UHGV virus genome: UHGV-1368299
Source: a virus
Direction: 5' to 3' (one strand)
DNA length: 50,382 nucleotides
In this document: positions 569-50,226 of the stretch, piece by piece
How positions within the stretch are numbered: position 1 is the stretch's first letter
Layout: each line of letters opens with the position of its first letter
The notes under the pieces: model-generated
What the model saw: only the letters and a program-made list of their open reading frames with translations
What the model was told of the DNA's origin: nothing
Databases searched by the model: none
Position numbers and translations under genes: made by a program

Positions 569-640
569 CACGTTTTGCTAAAACAACATGGCGGGATAGT
601 GGCATACTATCACCACACCAACAAGCGAAGGAGCTACACA

Positions 641-1614: not shown

Positions 1615-1629
1615 ACGGAGTAAACGGAA

Positions 1630-8511: not shown

Positions 8512-8744
8512 TCGTCACCGTAAATGCAAAAACCTTCGGCCATTTGCTCATACATGGCCACGCTTTCAAGGCCGTACCCGGCGCGAAAATAAATCTCACC
8601 TACCACACCATCAAGGCCATTCTCTGAAGGATTCGCCATGTAGTCGGCCATGCACAGGCGAGAAAGGTTAACCAGGTGGCGAGATACAACTTGCGCTTTT
8701 GCTGGTACGATCTTGATGGTGTCTGCAATGGTTTTTGTTTTCAT
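8508..8744 (-). CDS. hypothetical protein (78 aa; start moved to ATG 8744)
   Basis: AGGAG SD before internal Met; N-terminal extension would overlap intergenic cassette. Confidence 0.5.
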   Translation of the reverse strand: MKTKTIADTIKIVPAKAQVVSRHLVNLSRLCMADYMANPSENGLDGVVGEIYFRAGYGLESVAMYEQMAEGFCIYGDE

Positions 8745-8760
8745 GGCGTTTGCTCCTGAT

Positions 8761-8817
8761 TGGTTGATGGAGTAATAATACCCGCACGCGGCGGGCATTA
8801 TTTAGCAATTAGTGCTG
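8761..8817 (-). promoter_or_regulatory. intergenic cassette copy 2 (CCCGCacgcgGCGGG hairpin + TTTAGCAATTAGTGCTG)
   Basis: Shares hairpin + 20-mer architecture; one mismatch in right half-site. Confidence 0.5.
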
Positions 8818-9045
8818 TTTTGCGAAATACTCAGCGCCTTCATGCGATTTAAACTCAATCAATTCTCGTTCAAGAATTTCTGGCCAGTCAGCGACCGGGG
8901 TTCCGTTGTCCATGAACTCCATGTAGGTTCCGTCGATGGTGTCAGCGAAGGCTAACTTTTCCTCATCCGTACCAATGAAGCCGTACTTGTCCAGCAATTC
9001 AACAACGATCCGAAGATACTCGGAGAAAGATTCTACCTGTTCCAT
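8809..9045 (-). CDS. acidic hypothetical protein (78 aa)
   Basis: ORF track; co-directional. Confidence 0.5.
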   Translation of the reverse strand: MEQVESFSEYLRIVVELLDKYGFIGTDEEKLAFADTIDGTYMEFMDNGTPVADWPEILERELIEFKSHEGAEYFAKQH

Positions 9046-9782: not shown

Positions 9783-10070
9783 TTATTTAACCTCGCAGGT
9801 TAAGGTATGGTGAACAGTTCCAAGCGTAATATCAATGGTGTTTTCATTGACCGTATAATAAGCGAAACCAAATGGCGTAAACAGCTTATACTTGTTGTCA
9901 CTGATGCCATCTATTATATCGCCAGCATGTTTGCCTTTTACAAATTTTATGTAGTCACGCGTTACCTCTGCTGTGTCATCCCCGCAAACGTATGTTTTCG
10001 GTTTTTCGCTGCAACCAATAAGACCAAGAGACAGAACAACTAAAGCCAGCATCTTTTTCATTTTCAACAC
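9783..10070 (-). CDS. outer-membrane lipoprotein (possible Cor-like superinfection exclusion protein)
   Basis: Signal peptide + lipobox LIGC; 95 aa; position next to dam as in T1-like phages; function inferred. Confidence 0.6.
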   Translation of the reverse strand: MLKMKKMLALVVLSLGLIGCSEKPKTYVCGDDTAEVTRDYIKFVKGKHAGDIIDGISDNKYKLFTPFGFAYYTVNENTIDITLGTVHHTLTCEVK

Positions 10071-10080
10071 TCCGTTCTTA

Positions 10081-10139
10081 GTTTCGATGGGGAAATGATA
10101 CCCGGCTTTCGCCGGGCGGTTTTAACAAAAAGTGCTATT
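10081..10139 (-). promoter_or_regulatory. intergenic cassette copy 3 (GTTTCGATGGGGAAATGATA + CCCGGCtttcGCCGGG + TTTTAACAAAAAGTGCTATT)
   Basis: Full module; TAG stop of VRR-NUC gene embedded in GTGCTATT. Confidence 0.6.
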
Positions 10140-10542: not shown

Positions 10543-12587
10543 TATTCGTCTCCAAAATCTTTGCGTGAAATAATATCTTCCTTCTTACCGTTAACGCGAT
10601 GCGTTACGCGCTTCGGCGCTCGGAAGTAATGCGCATTCTCAAGGATTTTTCGCGCATTCTTCATCCCGCCCAGCTTGCCGCGCATTACCGCGTCGCTAAC
10701 GTGCTGGAAGACTGCCTTTTGCCGCCACAACTTGCCGCAAATCTGATTCTCTGATTCCGGGAAGAACTTTTCCCTTGCGGTGAATCGCTCGCCGTCATGG
10801 TTCAGTAACACGTAATTGAAGATGATCCCGGACTGATTGCGAGTCAAGCCGATATCGAACCCGACAACATCATACCAGTCATTTTGCGTATAGTGTTTCC
10901 CGGTGAGATTGTCGTTGGGGTCTTTAAGCTGCACCCCGCAGCATCTGCACTGGCGAGCAACAATATCGTTTTCAGCGTAACACCCTTTTACTTTAATCTT
11001 CCCTGTTCGTGGGTCTTTCTGGTCTTCGCAGCGCTGCGAGATCCAGAAGTATTCGCAACGATTACCGTTGCTGTCTTTGTGGATGCATCGGCGGGCGTAC
11101 TCGCTATTTTCTCCCTTGCATACCGGGCAAATTTTCGGGCCGTTCTTGCTGCTCTTGCGTCTTTGGTATTGCGCCTGCTCAAGAATCGGATCGAAATATA
11201 GCTGGCCCAAATCGTCCATAGTCCCGGCGAAGTCCCAAACTAAATGGTCTTCCTTTACCCATGAGTAAGGCGGCTGTTTTTGCCAGTCTTTTAGCAGTCG
11301 CATACCGCGCCCCAAAAGCTGAATAAGCAACGTAAGCGATCCGATCTTGCGCAATATCACCGAAAAATCCCAAAACGGAACGTTAACGCCAGTGGTAAGG
11401 GCCATAACCTGGAAGATGTATTTAATCTCCCCGCGATTCGCCTTATCCAAAATTTCGCCGCGTTTCTTCGAGTTGGTCTTCTCGGTGATGATCGCGTATG
11501 TTGCGTCCGGCGGTAGATAGCTCGCCGCTTCCTTGCAATGCCGCTGGCCAGCGCAAGTAATAAGAACGCCGTTTCGGGTTTTCGCACGCTCCACGACCTT
11601 TTGCATAATCAGCTTCGTCATCTCGCCGGATTCATGGATTTTCTTTTCCATCTTGCGCAATTCTTCCGCGCTAAAATCCTGCGTACCGTCCTGACTGGAG
11701 CCGTGGAATTCTGAAAGATCATACCCCAACCCATCCGCCTCGGTGTCACCGAAGATGGTGGGAACTACAGATCCGAACTCGACAAGATAGTTTGTGTTAA
11801 TGTCGGTGATCTGCTCGCGCCAGAATCCGGGTTGTGTCTTATCCTCCTGCAAGATGGGAACCACACCGCGAAACTCAGAACCTGTATAGCCGACAATGCG
11901 AAGTTCTCGGCCAGTTTTCTCCAGGCACCGCCGCATTAACTCGCAAATGACGATGGTGTACTGCGTGCGCCCTGTTCCCTCCATAGGCAAGCCATCATCA
12001 CCAATCATGAACTCATCGCTTTCGTTATCGCTAGTTATATCATAATTTGGATTTGGTACTTTCTCTCCTTTCTCCGTTGTCATTTGTAAAAACGATTCAT
12101 TATTGGCGATCGCCTCCGCCAGATCTTGCCAGTCAACCTGGTGGCATTCGTCAATGGCCAGAACTGAAGGCACGTAGTCGCCCAGCATTTTAAACAGGCC
12201 ATTAACCACCGTCCCTTCAGATCCGACGACGATCGGGAAGTATGCGGCCTTCGTGCCTAACCCGGCGCAATAAACGGAGTTGGGAACATCGAGGTTACTG
12301 ATCTCCTCGGAATCCTGCTTCACGATCTCTGCCTGGCGAGCAAGAACCATCATGGGTAAGTTCATTGCCTTGCACTGCGCCGCGAGCATGGCGATCATGA
12401 TGGTTTTCCCGGCGGAAACCGAAGCCTTAATGTAAAAAGGATGTTCATATTTTGCGATCCGCTTCGCGGTCTCAATATACGCAACCGCCTGATACGGGTA
12501 AGGAACGATATTTCCGACGGTGAACCGCTTTTGTATTAGCGGGATCTTGTCTGCGTAGGCTTCAATTTGTTGTTCAATTGTGAGCAT
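10542..12587 (-). CDS. SF2 DNA helicase (DECH box) with C-terminal Cys-rich zinc-ribbon region (start moved to ATG 12587)
   Basis: Walker A SVSAGKT, motif II AIDECHQ; multiple CxxC pairs near C-terminus; AGGA SD. Confidence 0.8.
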   Translation of the reverse strand: MLTIEQQIEAYADKIPLIQKRFTVGNIVPYPYQAVAYIETAKRIAKYEHPFYIKASVSAGKTIMIAMLAAQCKAMNLPMMVLARQAEIVKQDSEEISNLDVPNSVYCAGLGTKAAYFPIVVGSEGTVVNGLFKMLGDYVPSVLAIDECHQVDWQDLAEAIANNESFLQMTTEKGEKVPNPNYDITSDNESDEFMIGDDGLPMEGTGRTQYTIVICELMRRCLEKTGRELRIVGYTGSEFRGVVPILQEDKTQPGFWREQITDINTNYLVEFGSVVPTIFGDTEADGLGYDLSEFHGSSQDGTQDFSAEELRKMEKKIHESGEMTKLIMQKVVERAKTRNGVLITCAGQRHCKEAASYLPPDATYAIITEKTNSKKRGEILDKANRGEIKYIFQVMALTTGVNVPFWDFSVILRKIGSLTLLIQLLGRGMRLLKDWQKQPPYSWVKEDHLVWDFAGTMDDLGQLYFDPILEQAQYQRRKSSKNGPKICPVCKGENSEYARRCIHKDSNGNRCEYFWISQRCEDQKDPRTGKIKVKGCYAENDIVARQCRCCGVQLKDPNDNLTGKHYTQNDWYDVVGFDIGLTRNQSGIIFNYVLLNHDGERFTAREKFFPESENQICGKLWRQKAVFQHVSDAVMRGKLGGMKNARKILENAHYFRAPKRVTHRVNGKKEDIISRKDFGDE

Positions 12588-12600
12588 GGGCAATCCTAAT

Positions 12601-12628
12601 TTGTCATTCGCATAGTTGCGTGTATAAT
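12601..12628 (+). promoter_or_regulatory. sigma70 promoter: TTGTCA -N16- TG-TATAAT (extended -10)
   Basis: Near-consensus -35 and perfect extended -10, 50 nt upstream of first + strand gene in divergent region. Confidence 0.6.
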
Positions 12629-12639
12629 ACATGGAACAT

Positions 12640-12669
12640 TTTATCAGGTTTAACAAAAAATGCTATGAG
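12640..12669 (-). promoter_or_regulatory. degenerate cassette copy (TTTAACAAAAAATGCTATG) in divergent promoter region
   Basis: Partial match to 20-mer; no hairpin. Confidence 0.3.
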
Positions 12670-12678: not shown

Positions 12679-13080
12679 ATGGAACAAATGGCAAAGATTG
12701 ATAAGCGAACCTTGAACGGCAATAACGGAACATCGCGCGGGAAAGATAAGAAGAAACGCAAGCGACCGACTGGTTACTACGTGCTGAAGGATGAGGTTCG
12801 CGCCGGGTTGACTGCGCGGATGGAGCTGGTTATTGATGCCTTTGGTGGTATCGCTGGAACGGCAAAAGAGTTGGGGGTTAGCATCCAGGTTGTTCAGCAG
12901 TGGCGTAAGCGCGGCATGATCTCAGCCGATGGCGCTTATCTCGTACATAAGAGCTACCGCCGGAACAATTGCAAAGGTTTCCGCTCCTCATTCTGCCGAC
13001 CTGATTTAAGATTTGACAGCAACGGCAAGCCAGTGACGCGCCGATGCGACCGCCGGGAAATGCTCCGCGTTGTCCGATAG
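12679..13080 (+). CDS. HTH DNA-binding protein (Cro/YdaS-like motif GVSIQVVQQWRKRG); C-terminal ~40 aa low-complexity, true stop uncertain
   Basis: First gene downstream of strong promoter; HTH signature; basic N-terminus. Confidence 0.5.
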   Translation: MEQMAKIDKRTLNGNNGTSRGKDKKKRKRPTGYYVLKDEVRAGLTARMELVIDAFGGIAGTAKELGVSIQVVQQWRKRGMISADGAYLVHKSYRRNNCKGFRSSFCRPDLRFDSNGKPVTRRCDRREMLRVVR

Positions 13081-13098
13081 CACAATTTGACTAACAGC

Positions 13099-13140
13099 AA
13101 AACGCCTGCCGGGTTATGATTCTCGTGTAGGCGTTTTTTA
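13099..13140 (+). terminator. stem-loop + T6 (AAACGCCT...AGGCGTTTTTT), possible attenuator before primase
   Basis: 6-9 bp stem, large loop, T-run. Confidence 0.4.
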
Positions 13141-14610: not shown

Positions 14611-15657
14611 ATGGCTGAAGCAATTTTCAGGGCATACACCAGCGGTGAATTGACCAACGAGCAATATCACGATCCTAACTCCTGGTGCGCGGAGTACGTT
14701 AGCGGCTCAAGCCTCGGCGAGATTTACGCAACATCCCCGGCGCACTGGAAATTCAAGTTGCGTGAGGAAACCGCCGCGCTGGCGTTCGGAACCTGTTCGC
14801 ATACCTGTATGCTTGAGACGGCAAAATTTAATGGCGAGTACCTGCGGGCGACTTCTCCGGGCGAGGTTAAAGATCTGATTACGTCGAAGTCGGCACTGTC
14901 TGCGAAGCTGAAAGCGTGTGGCCTGATTGGGACGTCCAACAAGGATTACCCGGAACTTCTGGAAATGGCATATCGCGCCGGGATTGACGTAAATGTTTGG
15001 TGGGCGATTGAACTTTGCGACGAAAGCGCCGCGATGAACTCCGGGCGCAAGCTGGTTAAGGATGTTGATTTCGATGCCGTTGTTCAAATGCGCAGCGTGA
15101 TGCTGGCCAACCCGCGACACGCCGCATGTATCGAATCGCCTACCGCACAGCGTGAATTGTCAATCTTCGGTGAGATCTTCGGCGTCAAGGTCAAGGTTCG
15201 GCTCGATCATGTTGACGTTGTTTCCGATCCAGAACTCATCAAGGAGTGGGGGTTCAACCAGGATGAAGTTTTCGAGGTAGTGGTGATTACCGACTACAAA
15301 ACCACACAATCTTCCAAGCCGGACGATTTCGGGCGACTCGCCTTCAATTTGGGCTACTATCTCAAGATGGCATTGCAGCGCGATCTGTTTGTGAAGACAT
15401 ACAACGAAAAACGCCCGGTAGTTGTCAGACTGCTAACGCAGGAGAAAAAATCACCGTTTGCTCCGCTGGCGTTCACCCTGACCAGCCAGCAGATCGAGAT
15501 CGGTCGCAAGCAGTATCAAAGCGTGATTCATCAGTATGCGGAATGCGTGAAGCATGATTCATGGCCATCATATGAGTCAAACGCGGCGGAAGTCGTTTTG
15601 CCTACTCCGCAGTTTGTGAAATACATGTTCCCGGACGTATACGGCACAAATAGCTAA
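14611..15657 (+). CDS. PD-(D/E)XK recombination exonuclease (RecE/YqaJ/Cas4-like)
   Basis: VVVITDYKTT (D-x-K) motif; located with erf and ssb. Confidence 0.7.
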   Translation: MAEAIFRAYTSGELTNEQYHDPNSWCAEYVSGSSLGEIYATSPAHWKFKLREETAALAFGTCSHTCMLETAKFNGEYLRATSPGEVKDLITSKSALSAKLKACGLIGTSNKDYPELLEMAYRAGIDVNVWWAIELCDESAAMNSGRKLVKDVDFDAVVQMRSVMLANPRHAACIESPTAQRELSIFGEIFGVKVKVRLDHVDVVSDPELIKEWGFNQDEVFEVVVITDYKTTQSSKPDDFGRLAFNLGYYLKMALQRDLFVKTYNEKRPVVVRLLTQEKKSPFAPLAFTLTSQQIEIGRKQYQSVIHQYAECVKHDSWPSYESNAAEVVLPTPQFVKYMFPDVYGTNS

Positions 15658-15716
15658 ACACTGGTGCGCACTTGTGATATAGTGCGCATTACCAATCAGG
15701 AAAAGGAAACTTTATC

Positions 15717-16373
15717 ATGCGTACATCTGAAAAATTTACCACCATTGCAGCCGCATTAATCAAAGCAAAATCTGGCTTCGTGGCCGCGAAGAAAAGCGGG
15801 AAGAACAACCATCTTGGGAACACCTACGCGAATCTTGGGGATATCCTCGACGCGATTTCCCCGGCGCTGGAGAAGAACAAAATTATGGTCATTCAATCCA
15901 TGATGGATACGAGCACCGAAAAGGTGATGCACCTCGAAACGATGTTTTTGCATGAAAGCGGCGAGTTCATGGCGTTTCAGTACAATATGCCGATCAGTAA
16001 AACCGTCGAGCAAGCATATGGTTCAACAACATCTTACGCCCGCCGTTATGCGCTGGCCGCGGCGCTCGGTATCAAGCAGGCGGATGATGATGCAGAAATT
16101 ACGAAGATGACGCCGAAAGACTTCAAAAAACGCATTGACGCGTGCGAAGATCTCGAATCGCTTCGCGAGATCTATAAGCTGGCGAAACAAACGTTAACTC
16201 CTGCCGAATGGAAAATGACGGAAGACGATATCACCAAACGCCAGGCTGAACTGAAAGTCACCCCGGCGAACGGCTTCAATCCTGGTAAACCGCAAGAGGT
16301 TGCGAAACGTGAGCCTGAAAAGGTAGAATCAAAACCTGAACCAGAAGCACAAGATATTTCATCTTTCAACTAA
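15717..16373 (+). CDS. erf: ERF-family single-strand annealing protein
   Basis: GSTTSYARRYALAAALG motif typical of Erf; AGGAAAAGGAAA SD. Confidence 0.8.
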   Translation: MRTSEKFTTIAAALIKAKSGFVAAKKSGKNNHLGNTYANLGDILDAISPALEKNKIMVIQSMMDTSTEKVMHLETMFLHESGEFMAFQYNMPISKTVEQAYGSTTSYARRYALAAALGIKQADDDAEITKMTPKDFKKRIDACEDLESLREIYKLAKQTLTPAEWKMTEDDITKRQAELKVTPANGFNPGKPQEVAKREPEKVESKPEPEAQDISSFN

Positions 16374-16409
16374 TTTAACCGGGCGGGAAACCGCCCCATA
16401 GGAATGACA

Positions 16410-43866: not shown

Positions 43867-44075
43867 TCTTCCACAACCTCGCATTCGTCTGCGCTTACGC
43901 TGATATTGTCACCAGACTGGATAAACTCGCTATTGCGCGGAGCGATCACACAGTAGGAGCCGTCGTTGAAGTGGCCGTCGACCTCAAGAACTTCGCCGAT
44001 TTTGAGGCCGCATTCTTCCAGGGTAATTGAGCCGTCGCCGTTAAGAGTGTCTATTTTGGTGATTTTGATTTTCAT
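43863..44075 (-). CDS. hypothetical acidic protein (70 aa)
   Basis: GGAG SD; follows cassette copy. Confidence 0.5.
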   Translation of the reverse strand: MKIKITKIDTLNGDGSITLEECGLKIGEVLEVDGHFNDGSYCVIAPRNSEFIQSGDNISVSADECEVVEE

Positions 44076-44093
44076 TGCTGTAACTCCGTTTCG

Positions 44094-44151
44094 TTTCGAT
44101 GGGGTAACTATACCAGTTTACCCCTGATCGGTTTTAGCAATTCGTGCTATT
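44094..44151 (-). promoter_or_regulatory. intergenic cassette copy 5 (CGATGGGGTAAC...TTTACCCC hairpin, loop-side GATC, TTTTAGCAATTCGTGCTATT)
   Basis: Full module. Confidence 0.6.
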
Positions 44152-44186
44152 TGGCAGGCAATCCATTTTGGCACCCAAAAGCCATC

Positions 44187-44378
44187 TCACCACTTAAAAT
44201 TGCGGGAAATGATCACGCTGCCAACGGCGGAAAGTGTAATCCAGGGCCAGCAAAGCACAGGATAAAGATCTTCTTTGTCGGTAGAATCCGCAGATTTCAG
44301 GAAGGCCCGCATGAGGAAGCAGCCGCACGCATACAGGGCCAGAATAAGAACCACCAGGGCAATAATTGCGTAAATCAT
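44187..44378 (-). CDS. small membrane protein (63 aa; start moved to ATG 44378)
   Basis: AAGGAAAAAC SD; single TM. Confidence 0.5.
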   Translation of the reverse strand: MIYAIIALVVLILALYACGCFLMRAFLKSADSTDKEDLYPVLCWPWITLSAVGSVIISRNFKW

Positions 44379-44400
44379 GATGTTTTTCCTTGTCTTTGGT

Positions 44401-44449
44401 GGGGTGGCCATGCAGCAACCCCGGTTAGTGTTTGTGGTTCGTGCTATTG
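44401..44449 (-). promoter_or_regulatory. partial cassette copy 6 (GGGGTGGCCatgcaGCAACCCC hairpin + ...GTGCTATT right half only)
   Basis: Right half-site and hairpin conserved; left half degenerate. Confidence 0.4.
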
Positions 44450-45067
44450 CTGGAGCTTTGCGAAAGCGTCGGCCATCATGCGCAAAACTCGCGCGTGATC
44501 TTCAACGTCATAGCCAGGTTCGGTGCGCATGATTTCCCGAACCTTCTCGATCGTGGCGATAGCCGCCTGAAGTTCACCAGTCAGGAACGCAACCTGCTTT
44601 TCAAGCTCCGCGATTCGTGAGAATGGTTCGCGCATAAATGATTCGCACGAGGCATCACTAAGCGCCCAGCCGATCCCGGCGCGAATGACGGCGGTTAACA
44701 GCGGGTCGTCGTCTTTGGCGAAGTTGTCGGACGGGATCAGGTCAACGATGCAGGCCCGGTTAATGATTCCGTCTCCGATGGTTGCAGCGCGAATGGCGAT
44801 AGAACGGCTGTCATCGTAGGTTAACGAGTCGCGCTTACTGCAATCTTCGACCGGGTACTCAATATCGAAGTGATGGCCGCCAAGGTGGTGAGACGATCTT
44901 GTATGCACCGTATACACGCGCCCTTTGTCGTCTCTGACCTTGTAAAGCAGATCACCAGAATAGTTGGTGAGGGCGACTGCTGGGTATCGCTTCCCTTTTG
45001 TGAATTTTGCGAAAACATTTACCGGTGAGTCGACTGACGGGATCAGGGTAATTTTCTGACTTTTCAT
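44444..45067 (-). CDS. hypothetical protein (207 aa; C-terminal coiled coil)
   Basis: AAGGAAC SD at internal Met. Confidence 0.55.
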   Translation of the reverse strand: MKSQKITLIPSVDSPVNVFAKFTKGKRYPAVALTNYSGDLLYKVRDDKGRVYTVHTRSSHHLGGHHFDIEYPVEDCSKRDSLTYDDSRSIAIRAATIGDGIINRACIVDLIPSDNFAKDDDPLLTAVIRAGIGWALSDASCESFMREPFSRIAELEKQVAFLTGELQAAIATIEKVREIMRTEPGYDVEDHARVLRMMADAFAKLQQ

Positions 45068-45091
45068 TTGTGAGTTCCTTTGTTCGTTAGT

Positions 45092-45143
45092 GTGGGGATA
45101 GTATGCACCATCCCCGGACGTTCGTTTTAGCAATTCGTGCTAT
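45092..45143 (-). promoter_or_regulatory. cassette copy 7 (GGGGATagtatgcaccATCCCC + TTTTAGCAATTCGTGCTATC)
   Basis: Full module. Confidence 0.6.
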
Positions 45144-45631
45144 CAAAGGGCGTCTAATTCCGCCTCAATGAATTCGTACCATTCGTCGCCGTTAACTGGA
45201 TCGTGTTCAGTTCCATGAAGCCAGTCCGTATGCACGGAACAGAATTCACCTGACCTGTTGAAATAATAGTCGGCCCAGGCTCGCGCCCAATCGCCGACGC
45301 CAGCGAACGTGCCGAACTTGCGGATGTATGCGTCGGTGTAACCGCGCTCCTTCGCAATGCGCTTCAGTGCGCGAACCAGCAACTTGCGCTGCGATGCCTT
45401 CGATACTTTCCGCAGGTGGAAAAGCGCGTTTTCCGGCTCGCCACCAACACGGATGGTCAAATCTTCGTCAGTGTCCAGCGGGTTGACGATGAATTCGTTC
45501 AGGTATCCGCCCTTGATTACGTGTACCGTGCCTAGTGGTTCGCGCACCTCGACGGCATCGAATACGCAGCCGATAAGGTGGCGTTCACGCTCGCGTGCTA
45601 CATTGACAACCATAAGTTTGATGGTGTTCAT
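45143..45631 (-). CDS. hypothetical protein (162 aa)
   Basis: TAATG coupling. Confidence 0.55.
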   Translation of the reverse strand: MNTIKLMVVNVARERERHLIGCVFDAVEVREPLGTVHVIKGGYLNEFIVNPLDTDEDLTIRVGGEPENALFHLRKVSKASQRKLLVRALKRIAKERGYTDAYIRKFGTFAGVGDWARAWADYYFNRSGEFCSVHTDWLHGTEHDPVNGDEWYEFIEAELDAL

Positions 45632-45849
45632 TAGCGGATCTCCTTCACCTGGTGGGATTCAAGAAGGTTGGTTACTTCACGGATGCCGCAGTCTTCGAAT
45701 TCCTCTTCGGCCCCTGCCGCAATCCTTAATCTGGTGAACCCGGCGTCATCGTCGATTGCGACTTCAATAACCTGCTCGCTCGAAAGCTCAATGTATGCGC
45801 AGCCGTAGGAATTCAGTTCTTCCAGCAGTGCGATTAAATTATCGTTCAT
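45631..45849 (-). CDS. acidic hypothetical protein (72 aa; start moved to ATG 45849)
   Basis: AGGAG SD. Confidence 0.5.
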   Translation of the reverse strand: MNDNLIALLEELNSYGCAYIELSSEQVIEVAIDDDAGFTRLRIAAGAEEEFEDCGIREVTNLLESHQVKEIR

Positions 45850-45877
45850 TGCGTTGCTCCTGATTGGATTGTTCACT

Positions 45878-45933
45878 TCAGTAACGCCACTTTATCAAAT
45901 GACGTTACGGCAGTTTTAACAAAAAGTGCTATT
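45878..45933 (-). promoter_or_regulatory. cassette copy 8 (CGTAACGccactttatcaaatgaCGTTACG + TTTTAACAAAAAGTGCTATT)
   Basis: Full module with divergent hairpin sequence. Confidence 0.55.
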
Positions 45934-46114
45934 CTTTTTCGCCGCTGAACGCTGCCCGATACCCACGGCGGAATCCGTTAATCTCAGACAGGCGGCATAC
46001 CCCAATGATGATGCAAATCATGCCGATCGCCTGCCAGCCTACGTGGTCATGCAGTACCAGGCCGCCCAGGAAGAAGGCCCAATACAGCGCGAGTTTCTTT
46101 TTGCTTACTTTCAT
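45929..46114 (-). CDS. small membrane protein (61 aa)
   Basis: GAGGTG SD; hydrophobic. Confidence 0.5.
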   Translation of the reverse strand: MKVSKKKLALYWAFFLGGLVLHDHVGWQAIGMICIIIGVCRLSEINGFRRGYRAAFSGEKE

Positions 46115-46359
46115 ACTTTCACCTCAAATAGAACATTGTTTTCGTAAGGGCGATTGGCGTACATCGCGATCTTTTCGTCCGGCATCCGGCATGCCAACCA
46201 GAATTCTCCCTCTTCCGTGGTTCCCTGGTCATCCTGCAAAATCCATACTTCATCAAGGCCGCGGCCGAATCTGGCGTTATACTCCTTGCCGACGGTGAAG
46301 AATGGAGCCATCGGAGCGTAGCTCGCATGAGTGCAAATTACGGTTACGGTTTCCATCAC
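46111..46359 (-). CDS. hypothetical protein (82 aa)
   Basis: GTG/ATG start after upstream stop. Confidence 0.45.
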   Translation of the reverse strand: MMETVTVICTHASYAPMAPFFTVGKEYNARFGRGLDEVWILQDDQGTTEEGEFWLACRMPDEKIAMYANRPYENNVLFEVKV

Positions 46360-46367
46360 ATCTGGCC

Positions 46368-46736
46368 TTACAGTTTGTTGGCGAAGATGTGCCAGACGTG
46401 GCTTTTCGGCGTGCTCTTCATTAGTTTGTGAGCCTTGCGGGCCATGCGCTTATAGTCGCGCGAGGTCAGCTTAACAGGATCGGCAACGAACGATTCGACC
46501 ACCAGCCCTTCGCAGAGGTATTCCGGCGACCACTCCATGAACTCCTTTTCAGGCTGGAAGCGGACAAGGCGGTAGAGGAATTTAGAATCGTACAAGACCT
46601 CTCCGCGTTCGCCGTAGTAGAGCGCCCCACGCATTTTTCCATCATTGCCAACGTGCAAAAGGTGAATGCGGCTTTTCTTGCCTTCGAAGTTGGTTCCGAC
46701 GATGGCGACAACTGCGTTTTTGACGATCTGTTTCAT
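46368..46736 (-). CDS. hypothetical protein (122 aa)
   Basis: GGAG SD. Confidence 0.55.
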   Translation of the reverse strand: MKQIVKNAVVAIVGTNFEGKKSRIHLLHVGNDGKMRGALYYGERGEVLYDSKFLYRLVRFQPEKEFMEWSPEYLCEGLVVESFVADPVKLTSRDYKRMARKAHKLMKSTPKSHVWHIFANKL

Positions 46737-46760
46737 TGTGAATCTCCGTTGTTTGGTGTA

Positions 46761-46810
46761 TGGCCATTATGCCCGATCCTCTGACCGGGCGTTTAGCAAA
46801 AAGTGCTATT
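46761..46810 (-). promoter_or_regulatory. cassette copy 9 (GCCCGATCctctGACCGGGC hairpin with GATC + TTTAGCAAAAAGTGCTATT)
   Basis: Full module; hairpin has G-U pair only in minus-strand RNA. Confidence 0.6.
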
Positions 46811-47007
46811 CAGAAACCGAACGCCTCACGCTCCAGGCTGGCCAGCGACGGAAAGCTGAATTTTGTTACATGTAGTGAGCCGCCCACATAGCCGGAAATG
46901 CTGATATTGTTGAACTCAACCTCAACACTGATAATCTTCATTTTCTTGCTGAAGGCGTACATTGCAAGCGCACGGTGCGCCCGCGCAAGGAATTCGAATT
47001 GGTTCAT
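46810..47007 (-). CDS. hypothetical protein (65 aa)
   Basis: ATGA coupling. Confidence 0.45.
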   Translation of the reverse strand: MNQFEFLARAHRALAMYAFSKKMKIISVEVEFNNISISGYVGGSLHVTKFSFPSLASLEREAFGF

Positions 47008-47258
47008 TTAAAGATCGCCCCTTTGATTTTGTTCCAGAAAGCGAAAGGTACGCGCTTTGGCTTCAACTCCACCACGTCGTGATCGTAGAAGCCCAAGAGT
47101 AAGCCGCATTTCTTCGGTGGGACGTCCCCAATCACATCCCCCATGAAAAACCAGCTATCGCCATCCTTAAAGTAGACGCCTACGCACGCACCAGGTGCGG
47201 CATGGGTAGCAGTGTCCGGCAGGTTGTAGGTCTTGCCGCGAGATTCAAATTGTTGCAT
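47004..47258 (-). CDS. hypothetical protein (84 aa; start moved to ATG 47258)
   Basis: AAGGAGA SD. Confidence 0.5.
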   Translation of the reverse strand: MQQFESRGKTYNLPDTATHAAPGACVGVYFKDGDSWFFMGDVIGDVPPKKCGLLLGFYDHDVVELKPKRVPFAFWNKIKGAIFK

Positions 47259-47300
47259 TCTTCTGTCTCCTTGCATAATCGGTTTGTTAATAGACTTCGT

Positions 47301-47349
47301 GATTATTATGCCCGATCCCCTTACCGGGCGTTTAGCAATTCGTGCTATT
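47301..47349 (-). promoter_or_regulatory. cassette copy 10 (GCCCGATCcccttACCGGGC + TTTAGCAATTCGTGCTATT)
   Basis: Full module. Confidence 0.6.
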
Positions 47350-47665
47350 TCAGGCCGCGAAGGTCAATCTTCGATTTTGCCCAATCAGGGAAGCGAGCCA
47401 TTTCGCCCACCTGAACCATTTTGTTTACGCCATGCCCCTTATCCACCCATGAATCAGGCGAGTAGCTCAGTAGGCGAACATTTTCAACGGTCGACTCATA
47501 GGCCCAAATTGAGCCGTCGGCATCAATGGCAACCGTGTTGGCCCAAACTGGCACGTCAAGCGACTGCATATCGAACGTGCCAGGGATGTTAAACTGGAAG
47601 GCTACAACGTGGCGCTGCGTAATGGTCGCAACTACTCGCTCGCCGGATTTAACTTCGTGAATCAT
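47345..47665 (-). CDS. hypothetical protein (106 aa; start moved to ATG 47665)
   Basis: AAGGAG SD. Confidence 0.55.
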   Translation of the reverse strand: MIHEVKSGERVVATITQRHVVAFQFNIPGTFDMQSLDVPVWANTVAIDADGSIWAYESTVENVRLLSYSPDSWVDKGHGVNKMVQVGEMARFPDWAKSKIDLRGLK

Positions 47666-47675
47666 TGCGTTCTCC

Positions 47676-47888
47676 TTACAGAAACATTCCGGCCAGGCGC
47701 AGGCGGTTGATGATATCGTCACGCTTGACGCGGAGGCCGTCATAGTAGTCTTCGAGTTGGGGATCCCATGACGGCAGTTCAAGCATTGCTTTCATCTCAT
47801 CGCAGGCTACTTTAAGCGCGTTGAAGTTATGCTCGACGGCGCGACGGTGGGCTGCTGCGTTCAGTTCGTTGTTGTGGTTGCCAATCAT
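47676..47888 (-). CDS. hypothetical protein (70 aa; start moved to ATG 47888)
   Basis: AGAGGAG SD. Confidence 0.5.
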   Translation of the reverse strand: MIGNHNNELNAAAHRRAVEHNFNALKVACDEMKAMLELPSWDPQLEDYYDGLRVKRDDIINRLRLAGMFL

Positions 47889-47903
47889 GTTTTTTGCTCC
47901 TCT

Positions 47904-47962
47904 GTTTCGATGGGGTAATAATAACGCATTGCCCCGATCGAGTTTTAGCAAAAAGTGCTATT
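47904..47962 (-). promoter_or_regulatory. cassette copy 11 (TTTCGATGGGGTAATAATAACGCATTGCCCCGATCGAG + TTTTAGCAAAAAGTGCTATT)
   Basis: Full module; TCGATGGGG / CCCCGATCGA imperfect inverted repeat. Confidence 0.6.
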
Positions 47963-48146
47963 CCGCCAAAATCTCAAAGTCACGATCGTCGCTTTCGATA
48001 AACCACGGCTCACCTTCATCGTCGTGAGTCAGATAGCCGAACTTAAAGCTGTACGAATCAACGTCATAAACCTTGCCGATGGTGAACGCCTTCGCTGTGT
48101 CCTCGTTGTTGTCATTTCCAGTGAATCGAAGTCTTACAGTTTGCAT
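47958..48146 (-). CDS. hypothetical acidic protein (62 aa)
   Basis: AAGGAG SD. Confidence 0.55.
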   Translation of the reverse strand: MQTVRLRFTGNDNNEDTAKAFTIGKVYDVDSYSFKFGYLTHDDEGEPWFIESDDRDFEILAE

Positions 48147-48361
48147 TTATTGAACTCCTTAATCTGGTTCCCGCCGGAATGGTCTTCAATATCCACTCGG
48201 TCGCAGGTCACGTAAAAGCCGCGAATGACGGTGAAGCGCCACTTTCCTAACCAGTGGAAGTATACGCCGTGCTCGCTACCCTGTACGGCTTTGGTTGATG
48301 AGTATGGGATCGGCATCCCGGCGAAGGTGCGAAGTTTTGTTGTTGCTGAAAATCGTGGCAT
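48134..48361 (-). CDS. hypothetical protein (75 aa; start moved to ATG 48361)
   Basis: AGGAGG SD; preferred over overlapping low-complexity ORF 48247..48450. Confidence 0.45.
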   Translation of the reverse strand: MPRFSATTKLRTFAGMPIPYSSTKAVQGSEHGVYFHWLGKWRFTVIRGFYVTCDRVDIEDHSGGNQIKEFNKCKL

Positions 48362-48555
48362 TGCCAATCCTCCTGGCGTGAGCCGTGTTTACTGTGGGGA
48401 CATTGCGCCACCTTAGCGGCGCTATTGTGATTATTTGCCCTGGCGTGCAAGGTAGCGCTCTTTGAGCTTCTGCCAGTGCCAGCGCATGACGTGTTCGTTA
48501 TGGTAATTGCTCGTTGAATATGGATTCTTCTTGCTCATCTTCATATCCAGGTTGC

Positions 48556-48723
48556 TTAAAGAATTTCAACTGCTAATTCAGCGGCAATAAAATTGCCTTT
48601 TTTTATAAGGCTTTCGCGGAAGAACTCTGCCTTACTTTTCGTGAAACCAAAGCGATTCGCAAAAACCAACCAGTGTTTAACGCCTTTCGAATCGAAATAA
48701 CTTACGCCAAATTCTTTTTTCAT
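48556..48723 (-). CDS. hypothetical protein (55 aa; start moved to ATG 48723)
   Basis: GAGGAG SD. Confidence 0.45.
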   Translation of the reverse strand: MKKEFGVSYFDSKGVKHWLVFANRFGFTKSKAEFFRESLIKKGNFIAAELAVEIL

Positions 48724-48750
48724 TGCCTTACTCCTCATCACATCGTTTCG

Positions 48751-48810
48751 TTGTCGATGGAAAGATAATACCCGATCTACCTGACCGGGGTTTTAACAAA
48801 AAGTGCTATT
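48751..48810 (-). promoter_or_regulatory. cassette copy 12 (GTCGATGGAAAGATAATA + CCCGATCtacctGACCGGGG + TTTTAACAAAAAGTGCTATT)
   Basis: Full module. Confidence 0.6.
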
Positions 48811-49431: not shown

Positions 49432-49460
49432 ATAATACAGGCCGCAGGCCTTGCCGTCAA
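49432..49460 (-). promoter_or_regulatory. candidate sigma70 early promoter TTGACG -N17- TATTAT (minus strand)
   Basis: Good -35/-10 with 17-nt spacer about 45 nt upstream of first early gene. Confidence 0.45.
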
Positions 49461-49837: not shown

Positions 49838-49965
49838 AAATCATTGCACAGAATGAAACAATCAAAAGCAATCATGATTCGTCAAAACTAATCACCAGGG
49901 AATCAGGTGCAATCACCATCTATTCCACTATTCCGAATCGGTGGAATAATCAGCAATCGCAGGAA
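49838..49965. repeat. AATCA motif repeated 7 times with about 10/21-bp phasing + 8-bp inverted repeat TATTCCAC/GTGGAATA
   Basis: Read directly; non-coding. Confidence 0.5.
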
Positions 49966-50043
49966 TAGCATTTTTTGTCAAAAGCCATCCGATCGGCTTT
50001 GCTATGATGACTTCAACGAAACGAATTGTAGTGGAGTGGAGCA

Positions 50044-50226
50044 ATGAGACTCAAAGAGAAAGACATAGCATATGAAAATGGAAAATTTTGGGTATTAAAA
50101 AACAAAGATGGTTTTCACGTGATGATCTCAGGAATTACACATAGTGTAAGTGACAGTTCATATCGTCAGTTAGATTTAGCAATTGCACGGTGTGATTATC
50201 TCGCAAGACGTGCAATGAGAAATTAG
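50044..50226 (+). CDS. hypothetical protein (60 aa)
   Basis: GGAG SD; candidate extended -10 TGCTATGAT at 50000-50008. Confidence 0.5.
   Translation: MRLKEKDIAYENGKFWVLKNKDGFHVMISGITHSVSDSSYRQLDLAIARCDYLARRAMRN

What the first reader, a model, noticed from the sequence alone, without database searches (positions are those of the whole stretch)
44094..48810. A 12-copy intergenic palindrome + stem-loop cassette tiling the early regions
Eleven good copies and one degenerate copy of a ~55-bp module lie in gaps between co-directional genes at 1553, 8761, 10081, 12640, 44094, 44401, 45092, 45878, 46761, 47301, 47904 and 48751, always oriented with transcription. Read in the sense of transcription, each module has four parts. 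(i) The upstream gene's TAG stop sits inside AATAGCAC. (ii) Next comes TTGCTAAAA, so that TAGCA-N5-TGCTA forms a 15-bp palindrome. The 20-mer TTTAGCAAWWMGTGCTATT has only two spacer variants, AAAAG and ATTCG. (iii) Then a 5-9 bp GC-rich stem-loop of variable sequence. (iv) Then a -10-like hexamer (TATTAT, CATAAT or TATCAT) and often CCCCATCGAAAC, followed about 10-25 nt later by the next RBS. The palindrome looks like an operator for a dimeric DNA-binding protein. The TTGCTA and TATTAT elements are 22-23 bp apart, too far for a standard sigma70 promoter. That spacing suggests a protein- or structure-dependent promoter, or a combined terminator/anti-terminator/processing unit. I do not know of a described equivalent in T1-like phages.
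Basis: seen in the sequence. Interest (0 to 1): 0.85.

Follow-up and report, generated by a model that had tools for sequence, protein, structure and literature searches.

The report
Palindrome-controlled promoter cassettes, T1-like phages
The repeated ~55-bp module is real: a promoter cassette found across T1-like phages, with a 15-bp palindrome a fixed 22 bp upstream of a -10 box (probably the docking site of a conserved phage Cro-like regulator) and usually a stem-loop, but from memory the palindrome was already reported for phage Rtp, and T4 phages have similar cassettes.

Summary
The window is a whole Webervirus (KP36-like) genome. It carries 14 good and about 3 degenerate copies of the module, all at gene ends and all pointing with transcription.

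- **Distribution.** The same module occurs about 15-25 times per genome in T1, Rtp, a Tlsvirus and Pantoea phage AAS23. It also occurs in two Dibbivirus myoviruses.
- **Anatomy.** The palindrome TAGCA-N5-TG(C/T)TA sits 22 bp (rarely 21 or 23) upstream of a good -10 hexamer. G at -14 and an A at the inferred start site are conserved. There is no -35 box. The palindrome centre therefore falls at about -42, the position used by class II activators.
- **Candidate binder.** A conserved Cro-fold regulator (12679-13080) is made from a canonical sigma-70 promoter. That promoter overlaps one module face to face, and the palindrome lies in the regulator's own leader.
- **Stem-loops.** They are enriched but optional. 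They lie either between the palindrome and the -10 or across the -10, as in T4 PeSL promoter/terminator cassettes.

Best reading: regulator-dependent early/middle promoters with built-in insulators. From memory, the palindromes were reported for Rtp in 2006, so this is a new member of a known kind. No experimental data were available.

The parts
564..641 (+). Palindrome 566-580 (the TAG is the stop of ORF 191-568). The stem-loop overlaps the -10 (CATACT/TACTAT, 603-610). Inferred start site about 617. Next start codon 641.
1553..1630 (+). Module. Palindrome 1555-1569 (the TAG is the stop of ORF 856-1557). Stem-loop 1573-1594 lies between the palindrome and the -10. -10 TAGCAT at 1592-1597. Inferred start site 1604. 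ATG 1630.
8744..8819 (-). Module. Palindrome 8803-8817 (CAGCA variant; TAA stop in the spacer). Stem-loop 8774-8802. -10 TATTAT at 8775-8780. Inferred start site 8768. ATG 8744.
10061..10139 (-). Module. Palindrome 10123-10137 (the TAG is the stop of ORF 10135-10542). Stem-loop with GAAA loop 10100-10117. -10 TATCAT at 10095-10100. Inferred start site 10088, inside CCCCATCGAAAC. ATG 10061.
12587..12667 (-). Module without a stem-loop, driving the helicase gene. Palindrome 12651-12665. -10 TATTAT at 12624-12629 (spacing 21). Inferred start site 12617. ATG 12587.
12601..12628 (+). Canonical sigma-70 promoter of the regulator gene (TTGTCA-16-TATAAT, 11 of 12 matches). Its -10 overlaps the helicase module's -10 face to face. 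The palindrome then lies at about +16 to +30 of the regulator transcript.
   Evidence: Same layout in T1, Rtp and AAS23.
12679..13080 (+). Candidate palindrome-binding protein: a 133-aa Cro-fold helix-turn-helix regulator, ortholog of T1 ST23 and Rtp52.
13076..13140 (+). Degenerate module after the regulator gene. Palindrome remnant 13078-13092 (carrying the TAG stop). Stem-loop 13102-13134 across TATGAT, followed by a T-run, so this one is an intrinsic terminator.
   Evidence: T1 counterpart annotated as terminator.
15640..15717 (+). Degenerate module. Palindrome remnant 15642-15656. Stem-loop 15662-15691 across the -10 TATAGT (15678-15683). ATG 15717.
44075..44151 (-). Module. Palindrome 44135-44149. 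Stem-loop 44097-44130 enclosing the -10 TATAGT (44107-44112). Inferred start site 44100, inside CCCCATCGAAAC. ATG 44075.
44385..44448 (-). Only the AATAGCAC half (44441-44448) and a GGGG...CCCC stem remain. There is no second half-site and no -10.
   Evidence: not found at up to 4 mismatches
45067..45144 (-). Module. Palindrome 45128-45142 (TGA stop abuts it). Stem-loop 45094-45115 across the -10 (CATACT/TACTAT, 45098-45105). Inferred start site about 45091. ATG 45067.
45849..45933 (-). Module. Palindrome 45917-45931 (TAG stop). Long stem-loop 45875-45914 enclosing the -10 TAAAGT (45889-45894). ATG 45849.
46736..46810 (-). Module. Palindrome 46794-46808. Stem-loop GCCCGGTCAGAGGATCGGGC lies between the palindrome and the -10 CATAAT (46766-46771). 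ATG 46736.
47258..47349 (-). Module. Palindrome 47333-47347 (TAG stop). Stem-loop 47310-47329. -10 CATAAT at 47305-47310. ATG 47258 (or 47276).
47888..47962 (-). Module. Palindrome 47946-47960 (TAG stop). Stem-loop 47907-47941 enclosing the -10 TATTAT (47918-47923). Inferred start site 47911, inside CCCCATCGAAAC. ATG 47888.
48723..48810 (-). Module. Palindrome 48794-48808 (the TAG is the stop of ORF 48806-49399). Stem-loop 48771-48789, the only module hairpin that also meets the simple terminator rule. -10 TATTAT at 48765-48770 (spacing 23). ATG 48723.
49964..50044 (+). Palindrome 49966-49980 (TAGCATTTTTTGTCA). -10 TATGAT at 50003-50008. Inferred start site 50015. ATG 50044.
49432..49460 (-). 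Canonical sigma-70 promoter (TTGACG-17-TATTAT, 10 of 12 matches) upstream of the first leftward early gene. It is a likely regulator-independent entry point for host RNA polymerase.

Best explanation
Each module is a compact expression cassette placed between early or middle genes.

Core promoter. The core is a sigma-70-type promoter with a good -10 hexamer, usually G at -14, and an A start site. It has no -35 box.

Palindrome. In place of a -35, the 15-bp palindrome TAGCA-N5-TG(C/T)TA sits exactly 22 bp upstream of the -10. That puts its centre at about -42.

Proposed mechanism. A dimer of the conserved phage Cro-fold regulator (12679-13080) binds the palindrome and, from that position, helps host RNA polymerase to start. 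This is the geometry of lambda cI at PRM, of CRP/FNR class II promoters, and of Mu Mor.

The switch. The regulator itself is made at once by unaided host polymerase from a canonical promoter. That promoter overlaps the helicase module face to face, and the same palindrome lies in the regulator's leader. Binding would therefore turn the helicase promoter on and the regulator promoter down.

Stem-loops. The variable GC-rich stem-loops are an optional add-on that acts on transcripts arriving from upstream, as attenuator, terminator or 3'-end protector. Transcripts that start at the module's own start site lack the 5' arm and escape. This is how PeSL cassettes of T4-type phages work.

Shown versus inferred. 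Shown: the anatomy, the conservation, the fixed spacing, the enrichment of stem-loops, the fold and synteny of the regulator, and its canonical promoter. Inferred: the start site, who binds the palindrome, the sign of regulation (activation), and what the stem-loops do.
For: Motif frequency:
- 11 hits against 0.01 expected in the window.
- 13, 11 and 18 exact copies in T1, Rtp and a Tlsvirus.
- 15 against 1.9 expected in Pantoea phage AAS23.
- At least 10 and at least 9 copies in the Dibbivirus myoviruses AAM37 and DIBBI.

Fixed spacing:
- 22 bp in 42 of 52 modules from the window, T1 and Rtp; the rest are 21-24 bp.
- 21-22 bp in 127 of 148 scored non-redundant modules over all held phage loci.
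- The sequence between the palindrome and the -10 is otherwise unconstrained.

Promoter signature:
- -10 consensus TAtaaT, with A at -11 and T at -7 in 42 of 42.
- G at -14 in 35 of 42.
- Pyrimidine at -1 in 38 of 42 and A at +1 in 35 of 42.
- Positions -35 to -30 read AAAAcn, which is not a -35.
- The standard promoter scan finds none of the modules.

Regulator:
- Found in 831 phage records.
- The helix-turn-helix region is conserved across genera.
- The AlphaFold model has pLDDT 88. Its best structural matches are the dimeric, operator-binding Cro proteins of Xfaso 1 and N15, with TM-score about 0.7 on the target.

Canonical promoter plus palindrome in the leader:
- The best sigma-70 match in window 1-16500 is 12601-12628.
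- The same arrangement is found in T1, Rtp and AAS23.

Phage-encoded binder:
- Dibbiviruses carry the modules together with a 73-75-aa homologue of the regulator beside the primase gene, with the helicase gene divergent. One of them is recorded on Xanthomonas.

Stem-loops:
- 31 of 52 modules fold within the lowest 5% of random 42-mers.
- At least 6 different stem sequences share the register that pairs -24..-18 with -7..-1.
- The T1 record annotates three of them as terminators.
- PeSLs have the same order of parts and proven promoter and terminator activity.
Against: - No transcript ends, binding data or expression data exist for any of this. The start site, and hence the '-42', is inferred from the -10.
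- Cro-fold proteins are classically repressors.
- G at -14, with T at -15 in 17 of 42 modules, gives many copies an extended -10. That could make them active without help, in which case the bound protein would repress.
- Modules also precede the very first early genes (48794, 49966). Those genes might be expected to fire before any phage protein exists.
- The palindrome in the regulator's leader is explained anyway by the helicase promoter, so it is weak evidence for autoregulation.
- Constant spacing could owe something to common descent of duplicated cassettes.
- The asymmetric conserved bases (A at -51 and -50, C at -44, T at -40, AAA at -34 to -32) are not explained by a symmetric dimer.
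- Only one window hairpin meets a simple terminator rule, and many Rtp modules have no hairpin.
Confidence: 0.55

Rival explanations
1. Shut-off operator. The modules are self-sufficient, extended -10-type early promoters used by host polymerase alone. The Cro-fold regulator binds the palindrome to repress them (and its own gene) as infection proceeds, as lambda Cro does.
For: - The regulator has a Cro fold.
- G at -14 occurs in 35 of 42 modules and T at -15 in 17 of 42, giving extended -10 character.
- Modules precede the first early genes.
- At the regulator's own promoter the palindrome lies downstream of the start site, a repressing position.
Against: - A repressor does not need one exact distance from the -10. 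Yet the spacing is 22 bp in 42 of 52 modules, and 21-22 bp in 86% of scored modules across genera, despite a free spacer sequence.
- A site ending at -35 does not cover the -10 or the start site. It would be a weak block for a promoter that does not use a -35.
- Most copies lack the full TG motif.
Confidence: 0.2
2. Host-factor site. The palindrome is bound by a host protein rather than the phage regulator. The candidate is Lrp. From memory, its SELEX consensus YAGHAWATTWTDCTR has the same half-sites (YAGHA = TAGCA, TDCTR = TGCTA) and the same 5-bp A/T-rich spacer. Phage early transcription would then be tied to the host's nutritional state.
For: - The palindrome matches the remembered consensus at 13 of 15 positions for the CTTTT variant and 11-12 of 15 for CGAAT. 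I could not verify the consensus in the library.
- The motif is unchanged in phages of Escherichia, Klebsiella, Citrobacter and Pantoea.
- An identical motif with the same spacing sits at a C4 antisense-RNA promoter in Xenorhabdus, with no T1-type regulator gene within 8 kb.
Against: - C at -44 (39 of 42 modules) departs from the Lrp consensus.
- The same modules occur in phage DIBBI, recorded on Xanthomonas. From memory, the enterobacterial-type Lrp is not conserved in Xanthomonas.
- Every genome with modules carries the phage regulator in a syntenic position.
- Lrp usually acts through arrays of sites, not one site at -42 (general knowledge).
Confidence: 0.1
3. Mainly an RNA-level or recombination element. 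On this view the module's primary role is either as an intercistronic terminator/processing/stabiliser signal in long early transcripts, or as a conserved linker for homologous recombination that shuffles gene cassettes. The promoter-like features would be secondary.
For: - Stem-loops are strongly enriched, and T1 annotators called some of them terminators.
- Against three related Weberviruses, about half of the homology breakpoints fall within 60 bp of a palindrome.
- One Snyder module matches a T1 module almost exactly.
- PeSLs are proven recombination linkers.
Against: - The most conserved parts are the palindrome, the -10, G at -14 and the A at +1, not the stem-loops. Many copies lack a stem-loop.
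- The palindrome as RNA would be only a 5-bp stem.
- There is no Rfam match.
- All breakpoints lie at gene boundaries, and modules occupy about a third of those, so the enrichment over gene boundaries is small.
- This role does not exclude the promoter role.
Confidence: 0.1

Closest known systems
   Same: It is the same palindrome. Rtp carries 11 exact and about 20 near copies of TAGCAC-N3-TTG(C/T)TAAA upstream of genes. The regulator is orthologous: Rtp52 is 65-66% identical to window 12679-13080.
   Different: As I recall, that report only counted repeats in one phage. Added here:
- the fixed 22-bp link to a -10 and the resulting -42 geometry;
- the conserved start site;
- the two stem-loop layouts;
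- the overlapping promoter switch at the regulator gene;
- the spread to Webervirus, Tlsvirus, Sauletekiovirus and Dibbivirus.
Neither study has experimental support.
PeSL (promoter-early stem-loop) cassettes of T4-type phages (PMC2839356, PMC4122927)
   Same: - The order of parts is the same: upstream stop codon, A/T-rich upstream element, promoter, Shine-Dalgarno, start codon.
- Each has a GC-rich stem-loop (often GGGG...CCCC) placed either between the two promoter elements or across the -10.
- Both are dense among small, variable early genes.
- Both sit at indel and replacement boundaries.
   Different: - PeSL promoters are ordinary strong sigma-70 promoters with a -35 at normal spacing. 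Here the upstream element is a 15-bp palindrome 5 bp further away, and a dedicated regulator is implied.
- PeSL promoter, terminator and mini-circle activities were measured. Nothing has been measured here.
- There is no sequence relationship between the two.
Class II activator-dependent promoters: lambda cI at OR2/PRM (centre -42), CRP and FNR (-41.5), Mu Mor (-43.5) (established knowledge)
   Same: A dimer site centred near -42 abuts or replaces the -35 region. A -10 is present. The helical phasing is strict.
   Different: - Here the layout is multiplied 15-25 times per genome as the phage's main early/middle promoter type.
- The activator role and the contact with polymerase are untested.
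- The candidate protein has a Cro fold, not a cI or CRP fold.
T4 MotA/AsiA-dependent middle promoters (established knowledge)
   Same: A phage-specific upstream box replaces the -35 at many promoters in front of early and middle genes. The box sequence (TTTGCTTTA) resembles TTGCTAAA.
   Different: - The MotA box is asymmetric and centred at -30, about 12 bp from the -10.
- It needs AsiA to remodel sigma region 4.
- Here the element is a palindrome 22 bp from the -10.
- I did not screen the window for MotA or AsiA homologues.
Cro proteins of N15, Xfaso 1 and P22 (PDB 2hin, 6on0, 3bd1)
   Same: They are the best structural matches to the core of the regulator (residues about 38-100), with rmsd 2.1-2.8 A and about 25% identity. 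They are dimers that bind palindromic operators.
   Different: The phage protein has an extra basic N-terminal arm and a conserved C-terminal segment (GFRxxxCRPDLRFDxNGK...RC) of unknown role. Known Cro proteins repress.

Membership tests
Rtp52-type inverted-repeat elements of T1-like phages | The palindrome TAGCA-N5-TGCTA is repeated upstream of genes far above chance | tested here: met
   11 hits against 0.01 expected in the window. The same motif is present in Rtp, T1, Tlsvirus and AAS23.
Rtp52-type inverted-repeat elements of T1-like phages | The genome encodes an Rtp52 ortholog | tested here: met
   Window 12679-13080 is 65-66% identical to Rtp52 and matches phrog_2856 at 6.9e-75. It has the same position between the primase and helicase genes.
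Rtp52-type inverted-repeat elements of T1-like phages | The regulator binds the repeats | not testable with these tools
   Needs EMSA, footprinting or ChIP. Only fold, synteny and co-occurrence support it.
Class II activator-dependent sigma-70 promoter | A recognisable -10 hexamer with a start site 6-8 nt downstream | tested here: inconclusive
   The -10 is clear, and an A preceded by a pyrimidine is conserved 7 nt downstream. No 5'-end data exist.
Class II activator-dependent sigma-70 promoter | No functional -35 at 17 +/- 1 bp | tested here: met
   Positions -35 to -30 read AAAAcn. The consensus promoter scan misses every module.
Class II activator-dependent sigma-70 promoter | Dimer site centred near -41.5, with strict spacing | tested here: met
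   The palindrome centre is at -42 given the inferred start site. Spacing is 22 bp in 42 of 52 modules, and 21-22 bp in 127 of 148.
Class II activator-dependent sigma-70 promoter | Transcription depends on the bound activator | not testable with these tools
   Needs in vitro transcription or reporter assays with and without the regulator.
PeSL-type composite promoter/stem-loop cassette | Intergenic motif made of upstream stop codon, promoter, stem-loop, Shine-Dalgarno and start codon, repeated among small early genes | tested here: met
   compared with the description in PMC2839356.
PeSL-type composite promoter/stem-loop cassette | The promoter is a standard sigma-70 promoter with -35 and -10 at normal spacing | tested here: not met
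   The upstream element is 22 bp from the -10 and is a palindrome.
PeSL-type composite promoter/stem-loop cassette | Cassettes mark the boundaries of gene insertions, deletions and replacements | tested here: inconclusive
   Against RCIP0004, 6-7 of 11 internal breakpoints lie within 60 bp of a palindrome, which is 12% of the sequence. But all breakpoints are at gene boundaries, and modules occupy about a third of those.
Intrinsic (rho-independent) terminator | GC-rich stem-loop followed directly by a U-run | tested here: not met
   Only 48771-48789 among the full modules, and the degenerate copy 13102-13134, qualify. Stems across the -10 are followed by AUCGAAAC.
MerR-type long-spacer promoter | -35 and -10 separated by 19-20 bp, with the dyad operator inside the spacer | tested here: not met
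   The spacer is 22 bp. The palindrome lies upstream and includes the -35-like hexamer instead of sitting between the boxes.
T4 MotA-box middle promoter | Asymmetric box centred at -30, about 12 bp from the -10 | tested here: not met
   The element is symmetric, and its proximal edge is 22 bp from the -10.
Known RNA family (Rfam) | Match to a curated covariance model | tested here: not met
   No match at gathering thresholds anywhere in the window.

The most novel reading that the evidence does not exclude
T1-like siphoviruses and Dibbivirus myoviruses share a dedicated, phage-specific promoter class. In it, a small Cro-fold protein stands in for -35 recognition from a palindrome locked at -42, at 15-25 promoters per genome. 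This would be a functional counterpart of T4 MotA/AsiA built from a different protein. Stem-loops laid over or beside the -10 would make every promoter also an insulator and a recombination linker, so that the early genome is assembled from self-contained, exchangeable expression cassettes. A bolder variant, not excluded, is that host Lrp rather than the phage protein reads the palindrome. That would couple phage early transcription to the host's feast/famine state.
Probability: 0.3. Interest if true: 0.6.

Novelty: new member of a known kind. Interest (0 to 1): 0.4.

Why it matters
How T1-like phages (Drexlerviridae) control transcription is essentially unstudied, although they are among the most commonly isolated coliphages and Klebsiella phages and are candidates for therapy. 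They encode no RNA polymerase.

What this analysis offers:
- A concrete, testable map: about 16 predicted promoters with start sites in this genome, one candidate master regulator, and a predicted switch at the regulator/helicase divergent region.
- If the regulator is an activator, it is a single point of control for early/middle expression. It would be useful for phage engineering, for annotation, and possibly as a target of host defence.
- The cassettes would also supply portable, phage-specific promoters.
- The likeness to T4 PeSLs suggests that 'promoter plus stem-loop' cassettes are a recurrent answer to packing and shuffling small accessory genes in unrelated phage families.

The limit on the claim: as far as I recall the palindrome was already noticed in 2006, and the general mechanism is a familiar one.

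Tried and rejected
Literature:
- Ten full-text searches found no paper in the held library that describes the motif, its 15-mers, Rtp52, or Drexlerviridae transcript mapping. The PeSL search was the only useful one.
- The T1 and Rtp genome papers could not be opened.
- I could not verify the Lrp consensus.

Mechanisms considered and rejected:
- Sigma-32 promoter, suggested by CCCCAT: rejected by my own reading of the sequence. There is no CTTGAA about 14 bp upstream, and CCCCAT is absent from most copies.
- TTGCTA used as a true -35, with the hairpin shortening the spacer: rejected. The spacing is the same in copies without any hairpin, and the distal half-site is at least as conserved as the proximal one.
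- MerR-type and MotA-type layouts: the geometry does not fit.
- A single fixed stem-loop register: rejected. The register pairing -24..-18 with -7..-1 is the commonest (10 of 52 against 0.9 expected), but other registers occur.
- Dam (GATC) control: GATC is enriched only in Webervirus copies (6 of 13) and not in T1 or Rtp, so it is not a family feature.
- Covariation between the regulator's recognition helix and the palindrome: not possible, because both are conserved everywhere I looked.

Other checks:
- Scan of bacterial genomes: 23 single hits in 596 Gb, which is chance level, apart from one Xenorhabdus locus.
- Folding the regulator from a single sequence failed (pLDDT 38). It worked with a 42-sequence alignment.
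- Loci L003 and L004 never reached the scripting machine. They were analysed only with the pattern tools.

Full report
**What the window is.** The 4.9-kb interval matches about 400 phage records at 85-92% identity, and almost all of them are Klebsiella phages of the genus Webervirus, family Drexlerviridae. The 50,382-bp window is the size of a complete genome of that kind. The finding concerns the leftward early region, which consists of small minus-strand genes between 43.8 and 49.4 kb.

**Checking the observation.**
- Read in the direction of transcription, the copies align as AATAGCAC-N3-TTG(C/T)TAAA, a variable segment, a -10-like hexamer, an A/C-rich leader, a Shine-Dalgarno sequence and a start codon.
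- I find 13 full copies plus degenerate ones. The palindromes are at 566, 1555, 8803, 10123, 12651, 44135, 45128, 45917, 46794, 47333, 47946, 48794 and 49966. Degenerate copies are at 13078, 15642 and the half-decayed 44401 site.
- All copies sit at gene ends and point the same way as the flanking genes. None with up to one mismatch lies inside a coding region.
- The TAG inside AATAGCAC is the upstream gene's stop codon in 7 of 11 cases. In three more, a stop lies within or abuts the motif.
- 'Only two spacer variants' is nearly but not strictly true.
- CCCCATCGAAAC is exact in three copies.

**The module is a property of the family, not of this phage.**
- Coliphage T1 has 13 exact and about 24 near copies.
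- Rtp has 11 exact and about 20 near copies.
- The Tlsvirus ZerotoHero has 18 exact copies.
- Pantoea phage AAS23 has 15 copies within three mismatches, against 1.9 expected.
- An IMG/VR scan for palindrome + 22 bp + TANNNT returned 20 stretches. Nearly all came from contigs of 45-52 kb, and one came from a 148.7-kb contig, about three times the unit genome length.
- Unexpectedly, the same module also occurs at least 10 and at least 9 times in two Dibbivirus myoviruses, Pantoea phage AAM37 and Xanthomonas phage DIBBI. They share the T1-type helicase/regulator/primase block.
- A scan of 596 Gb of bacterial and archaeal genomes gave 23 isolated hits in unrelated taxa. That is about the chance level, and none was in an Escherichia or Klebsiella representative genome.

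**Anatomy from 52 modules of three complete genomes.**
- The distance from the end of TG(C/T)TA to the best -10 hexamer is 22 bp in 42 modules, 23 in 5, 21 in 3 and 24 in 2. The two 24-bp cases also allow a 22-bp reading.
- Over all phage loci held, 127 of 148 scored non-redundant modules have a spacing of 21-22 bp.
- Aligned on the -10, the conserved positions run as follows:
  - A(-51) A T A G C A C, then [G/T][A/T][A/T], then T T G [C/T] T A A A A(-32);
  - an unconstrained stretch from -31 to -16;
  - G at -14 (35 of 42) and T at -15 (17 of 42);
  - TAtaaT, with A at -11 and T at -7 invariant;
  - CC at -4 and -3, a pyrimidine at -1 (38 of 42), and A at the seventh base after the hexamer (35 of 42).
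- This is the signature of a bacterial promoter with its start site at that A, the A of CCCCAtcgaaac.
- Positions -35 to -30 read AAAAcn, so there is no -35. The consensus scan accordingly finds none of the modules.
- With the inferred start site, the palindrome spans -49 to -35 and is centred at -42.
- Only the 5-bp half-sites are symmetric, and they are 10 bp apart centre to centre. Several other conserved bases are asymmetric.

**Why I read this as a factor-dependent promoter.**
- A -35-like hexamer 22 bp from the -10 lies half a helical turn beyond what sigma-70 can use.
- The spacing is the same whether or not a hairpin lies in between.
- The distal half-site is at least as conserved as the proximal one.
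- Such strict spacing across genera, whose regulators are only 51-66% identical, together with a free intervening sequence, implies a stereospecific link between whatever binds the palindrome and the polymerase at the -10.
- A dimer site at about -42 is the geometry of class II activation: lambda cI at OR2/PRM, CRP and FNR at -41.5, Mu Mor at -43.5 (established knowledge).

**The candidate protein.**
- Window 12679-13080 encodes a 133-aa protein with weak Pfam hits to P22_Cro and YdaS and a strong hit to the PHROG 'transcriptional regulator' family phrog_2856.
- It is the ortholog of T1 ST23 and Rtp52. tblastn finds it in 831 phage records.
- With a 42-sequence alignment, AlphaFold gives a confident model (pLDDT 88).
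- The model's helical core superposes on the dimeric, operator-binding Cro proteins of Xfaso 1 and N15, with target TM-score about 0.7 and rmsd 2.1-2.8 A.
- It has in addition a basic N-terminal arm and a conserved C-terminal segment.
- The Dibbiviruses that carry the modules have a 73-75-aa homologue in the same position.
I see no specific link between it and the modules.

**A predicted switch.**
- The best canonical sigma-70 promoter in the first 16.5 kb is TTGTCA-16-TATAAT at 12601-12628(+), just upstream of the regulator gene.
- Its -10 overlaps, face to face, the -10 of the module that drives the divergent helicase gene.
- The palindrome 12651-12665 is therefore at -42 for the helicase promoter and at about +16 to +30 in the regulator's leader.
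- The same arrangement is present in T1, Rtp and AAS23.
- This suggests the following order of events. Unaided host polymerase makes the regulator at once. It probably also enters the leftward early cluster from TTGACG-17-TATTAT at 49432-49460. The regulator then binds, turns the module promoters on and turns its own promoter down.
- This sequence of events is inference.

**The stem-loops.**
- 31 of 52 modules fold within the lowest 5% of random 42-mers from the same genomes. About 2.6 would be expected.
- The stem-loops have two layouts:
  - both arms between the palindrome and the -10, with the 3' arm abutting the hexamer (1555, 8803, 10123, 46794, 47333, 48794);
  - arms flanking the -10, so that the hexamer lies in the loop (44135, 45128, 45917, 47946, 566, and most T1 copies).
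- For the second layout, the commonest register pairs -24..-18 with -7..-1. It occurs in 10 of 52 modules, against 0.9 in shuffles, with at least six different stem sequences. The pairing is therefore maintained by compensating changes between copies.
- Many Rtp copies and the helicase copy have no stem-loop, so it is an accessory.
- The inferred start site lies at or beyond the 3' arm. Only transcripts coming from upstream would contain the whole hairpin.
- Few of the hairpins have a proper U-run. Only 48771-48789 among the full modules, and the degenerate copy after the regulator gene, pass a simple terminator rule. The T1 record nevertheless annotates three of them as rho-independent terminators.
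- No Rfam family matches.

**Comparison with what is known.**
- The closest description I could read is that of the PeSL cassettes of T4-type phages (PMC2839356, PMC4122927).
  - Their promoter and terminator/attenuator activities are demonstrated, as is their role as recombination linkers among small variable early genes.
  - The present modules have the same layout but differ in the upstream promoter element.
- From memory, the abstract of the Rtp genome paper (Wietzorrek et al. 2006) states that Rtp52 is a putative regulator for which 10 conserved inverted repeats were found upstream of genes, against one in E. coli. I could not retrieve it.
- The palindrome itself is therefore, in all likelihood, already on record for this family.

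**Recombination role.**
- Against three related Weberviruses, homology blocks often end at modules. Against RCIP0004, 6-7 of 11 internal breakpoints do.
- A Snyder module is nearly identical to a T1 module.
- However, all breakpoints are at gene boundaries, and modules occupy about a third of those. The evidence is suggestive, not specific.

**Rivals.**
- **Repressor reading.** The protein may shut off self-sufficient extended -10 promoters. The Cro fold, the G at -14, and modules in front of the very first genes favour this. The strict spacing and the position of the site argue against it.
- **Host factor.** From memory, the half-sites and spacer fit the Lrp consensus YAGHAWATTWTDCTR at 13 of 15 positions. 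An identical motif with the same spacing precedes a C4 antisense RNA in Xenorhabdus, with no T1-type regulator nearby. On the other hand, C at -44 departs from that consensus, the modules occur in a phage recorded on Xanthomonas, and the phage regulator always co-occurs with them.
- **A purely RNA-level or recombinational role.** This does not explain why the palindrome, the -10, G at -14 and the A at +1 are the most conserved parts.

**Verdict.**
- The claim that no equivalent has been described does not hold.
- I rate it a new member of a known kind, of moderate interest. It is a clean, testable regulatory system in a poorly studied but very common phage family, without experimental evidence so far.

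Noticed in passing
L051 (Pantoea phage AAM37) 21473-36371 and L052 (Xanthomonas phage DIBBI) 12053-26623: The same palindrome + 22 bp + -10 modules, mostly with stem-loops between the palindrome and the -10, occur at least 9-10 times in Dibbivirus myoviruses outside Drexlerviridae. These phages share the helicase / small Cro-like regulator / primase block. The regulatory system therefore travels with the replication/early module, not with the virion type.
   Followed up: partly
L034 6846(+), L039 7839(-), L041 286(-) (Xenorhabdus genomes): An exact AATAGCACTTTTTGCTAAA, followed 21-22 bp later by TATAAT, sits just upstream of a C4 antisense RNA (Rfam RF01695, 62 bits) next to an ssb gene. This looks like a P1/P7-like immunity region. 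No T1-type regulator gene lies within the 8 kb held. It may be chance or a related promoter class.
   Followed up: partly
window 12601-12667: The canonical promoter of the regulator gene and the helicase module promoter overlap face to face through their -10 hexamers (TATAAT on one strand, TATTAT on the other). This layout is conserved in T1, Rtp and AAS23.
   Followed up: yes
window 7034-8164 (-): A 376-aa phosphoesterase/'DNA repair exonuclease' family protein (phrog_704) has a short N-terminal match to Sigma70_r4_2 (residues 8-37, 28.2 bits, above the Pfam cut-off). The role of this helix-turn-helix is unknown.
   Followed up: no
L001 (T1) 15069-15087(-) and 18833-18849(-); window 36100-36118(+): Palindromes lie in the opposite orientation to the late genes, in the gaps upstream of the major capsid gene and the tape-measure chaperone gene of T1. 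A decayed counterpart lies upstream of the window's capsid gene. They could be antisense promoters or roadblock sites in the late region.
   Followed up: no
window modules at 44135, 46794, 47333, 47946, 48794, 49966: GATC (Dam) sites lie inside the spacer or stem-loop of 6 of 13 window modules, against about 18% expected. T1 has 1 of 17 and Rtp 1 of 19, so this is a Webervirus peculiarity, probably from related hairpin sequences (GATCGGG).
   Followed up: yes
L027 (phage Snyder), module at minus-strand index 6655, compared with L001 (T1) 3535: The Snyder module (aaacttccgcaaggccatttgaTATAGTggccttattgaag) is almost identical to a T1 module, although the two phages belong to different subfamilies. 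This hints at exchange of whole cassettes across genera.
   Followed up: no
window 49400-49960: A roughly 560-bp non-coding stretch, partly very A/T-rich, lies between the two divergent early clusters. It has runs of TATATA/ATAATA and a canonical promoter at 49432-49460(-). It is probably the early control or genome-end region.
   Followed up: no
window 50285-50335 (+): A module-like remnant: a stem-loop GGGAGT...ACTCC followed by CCTCATCGAAAA, a Shine-Dalgarno sequence and ATG. It has no recognisable palindrome upstream.
   Followed up: no
L006 (IMGVR_UViG_3300030441_000047): A 148,739-bp IMG/VR contig carries a typical module. Its length is about three times 49.6 kb, so it is probably a concatemer assembly of a T1-like genome.
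   Followed up: no
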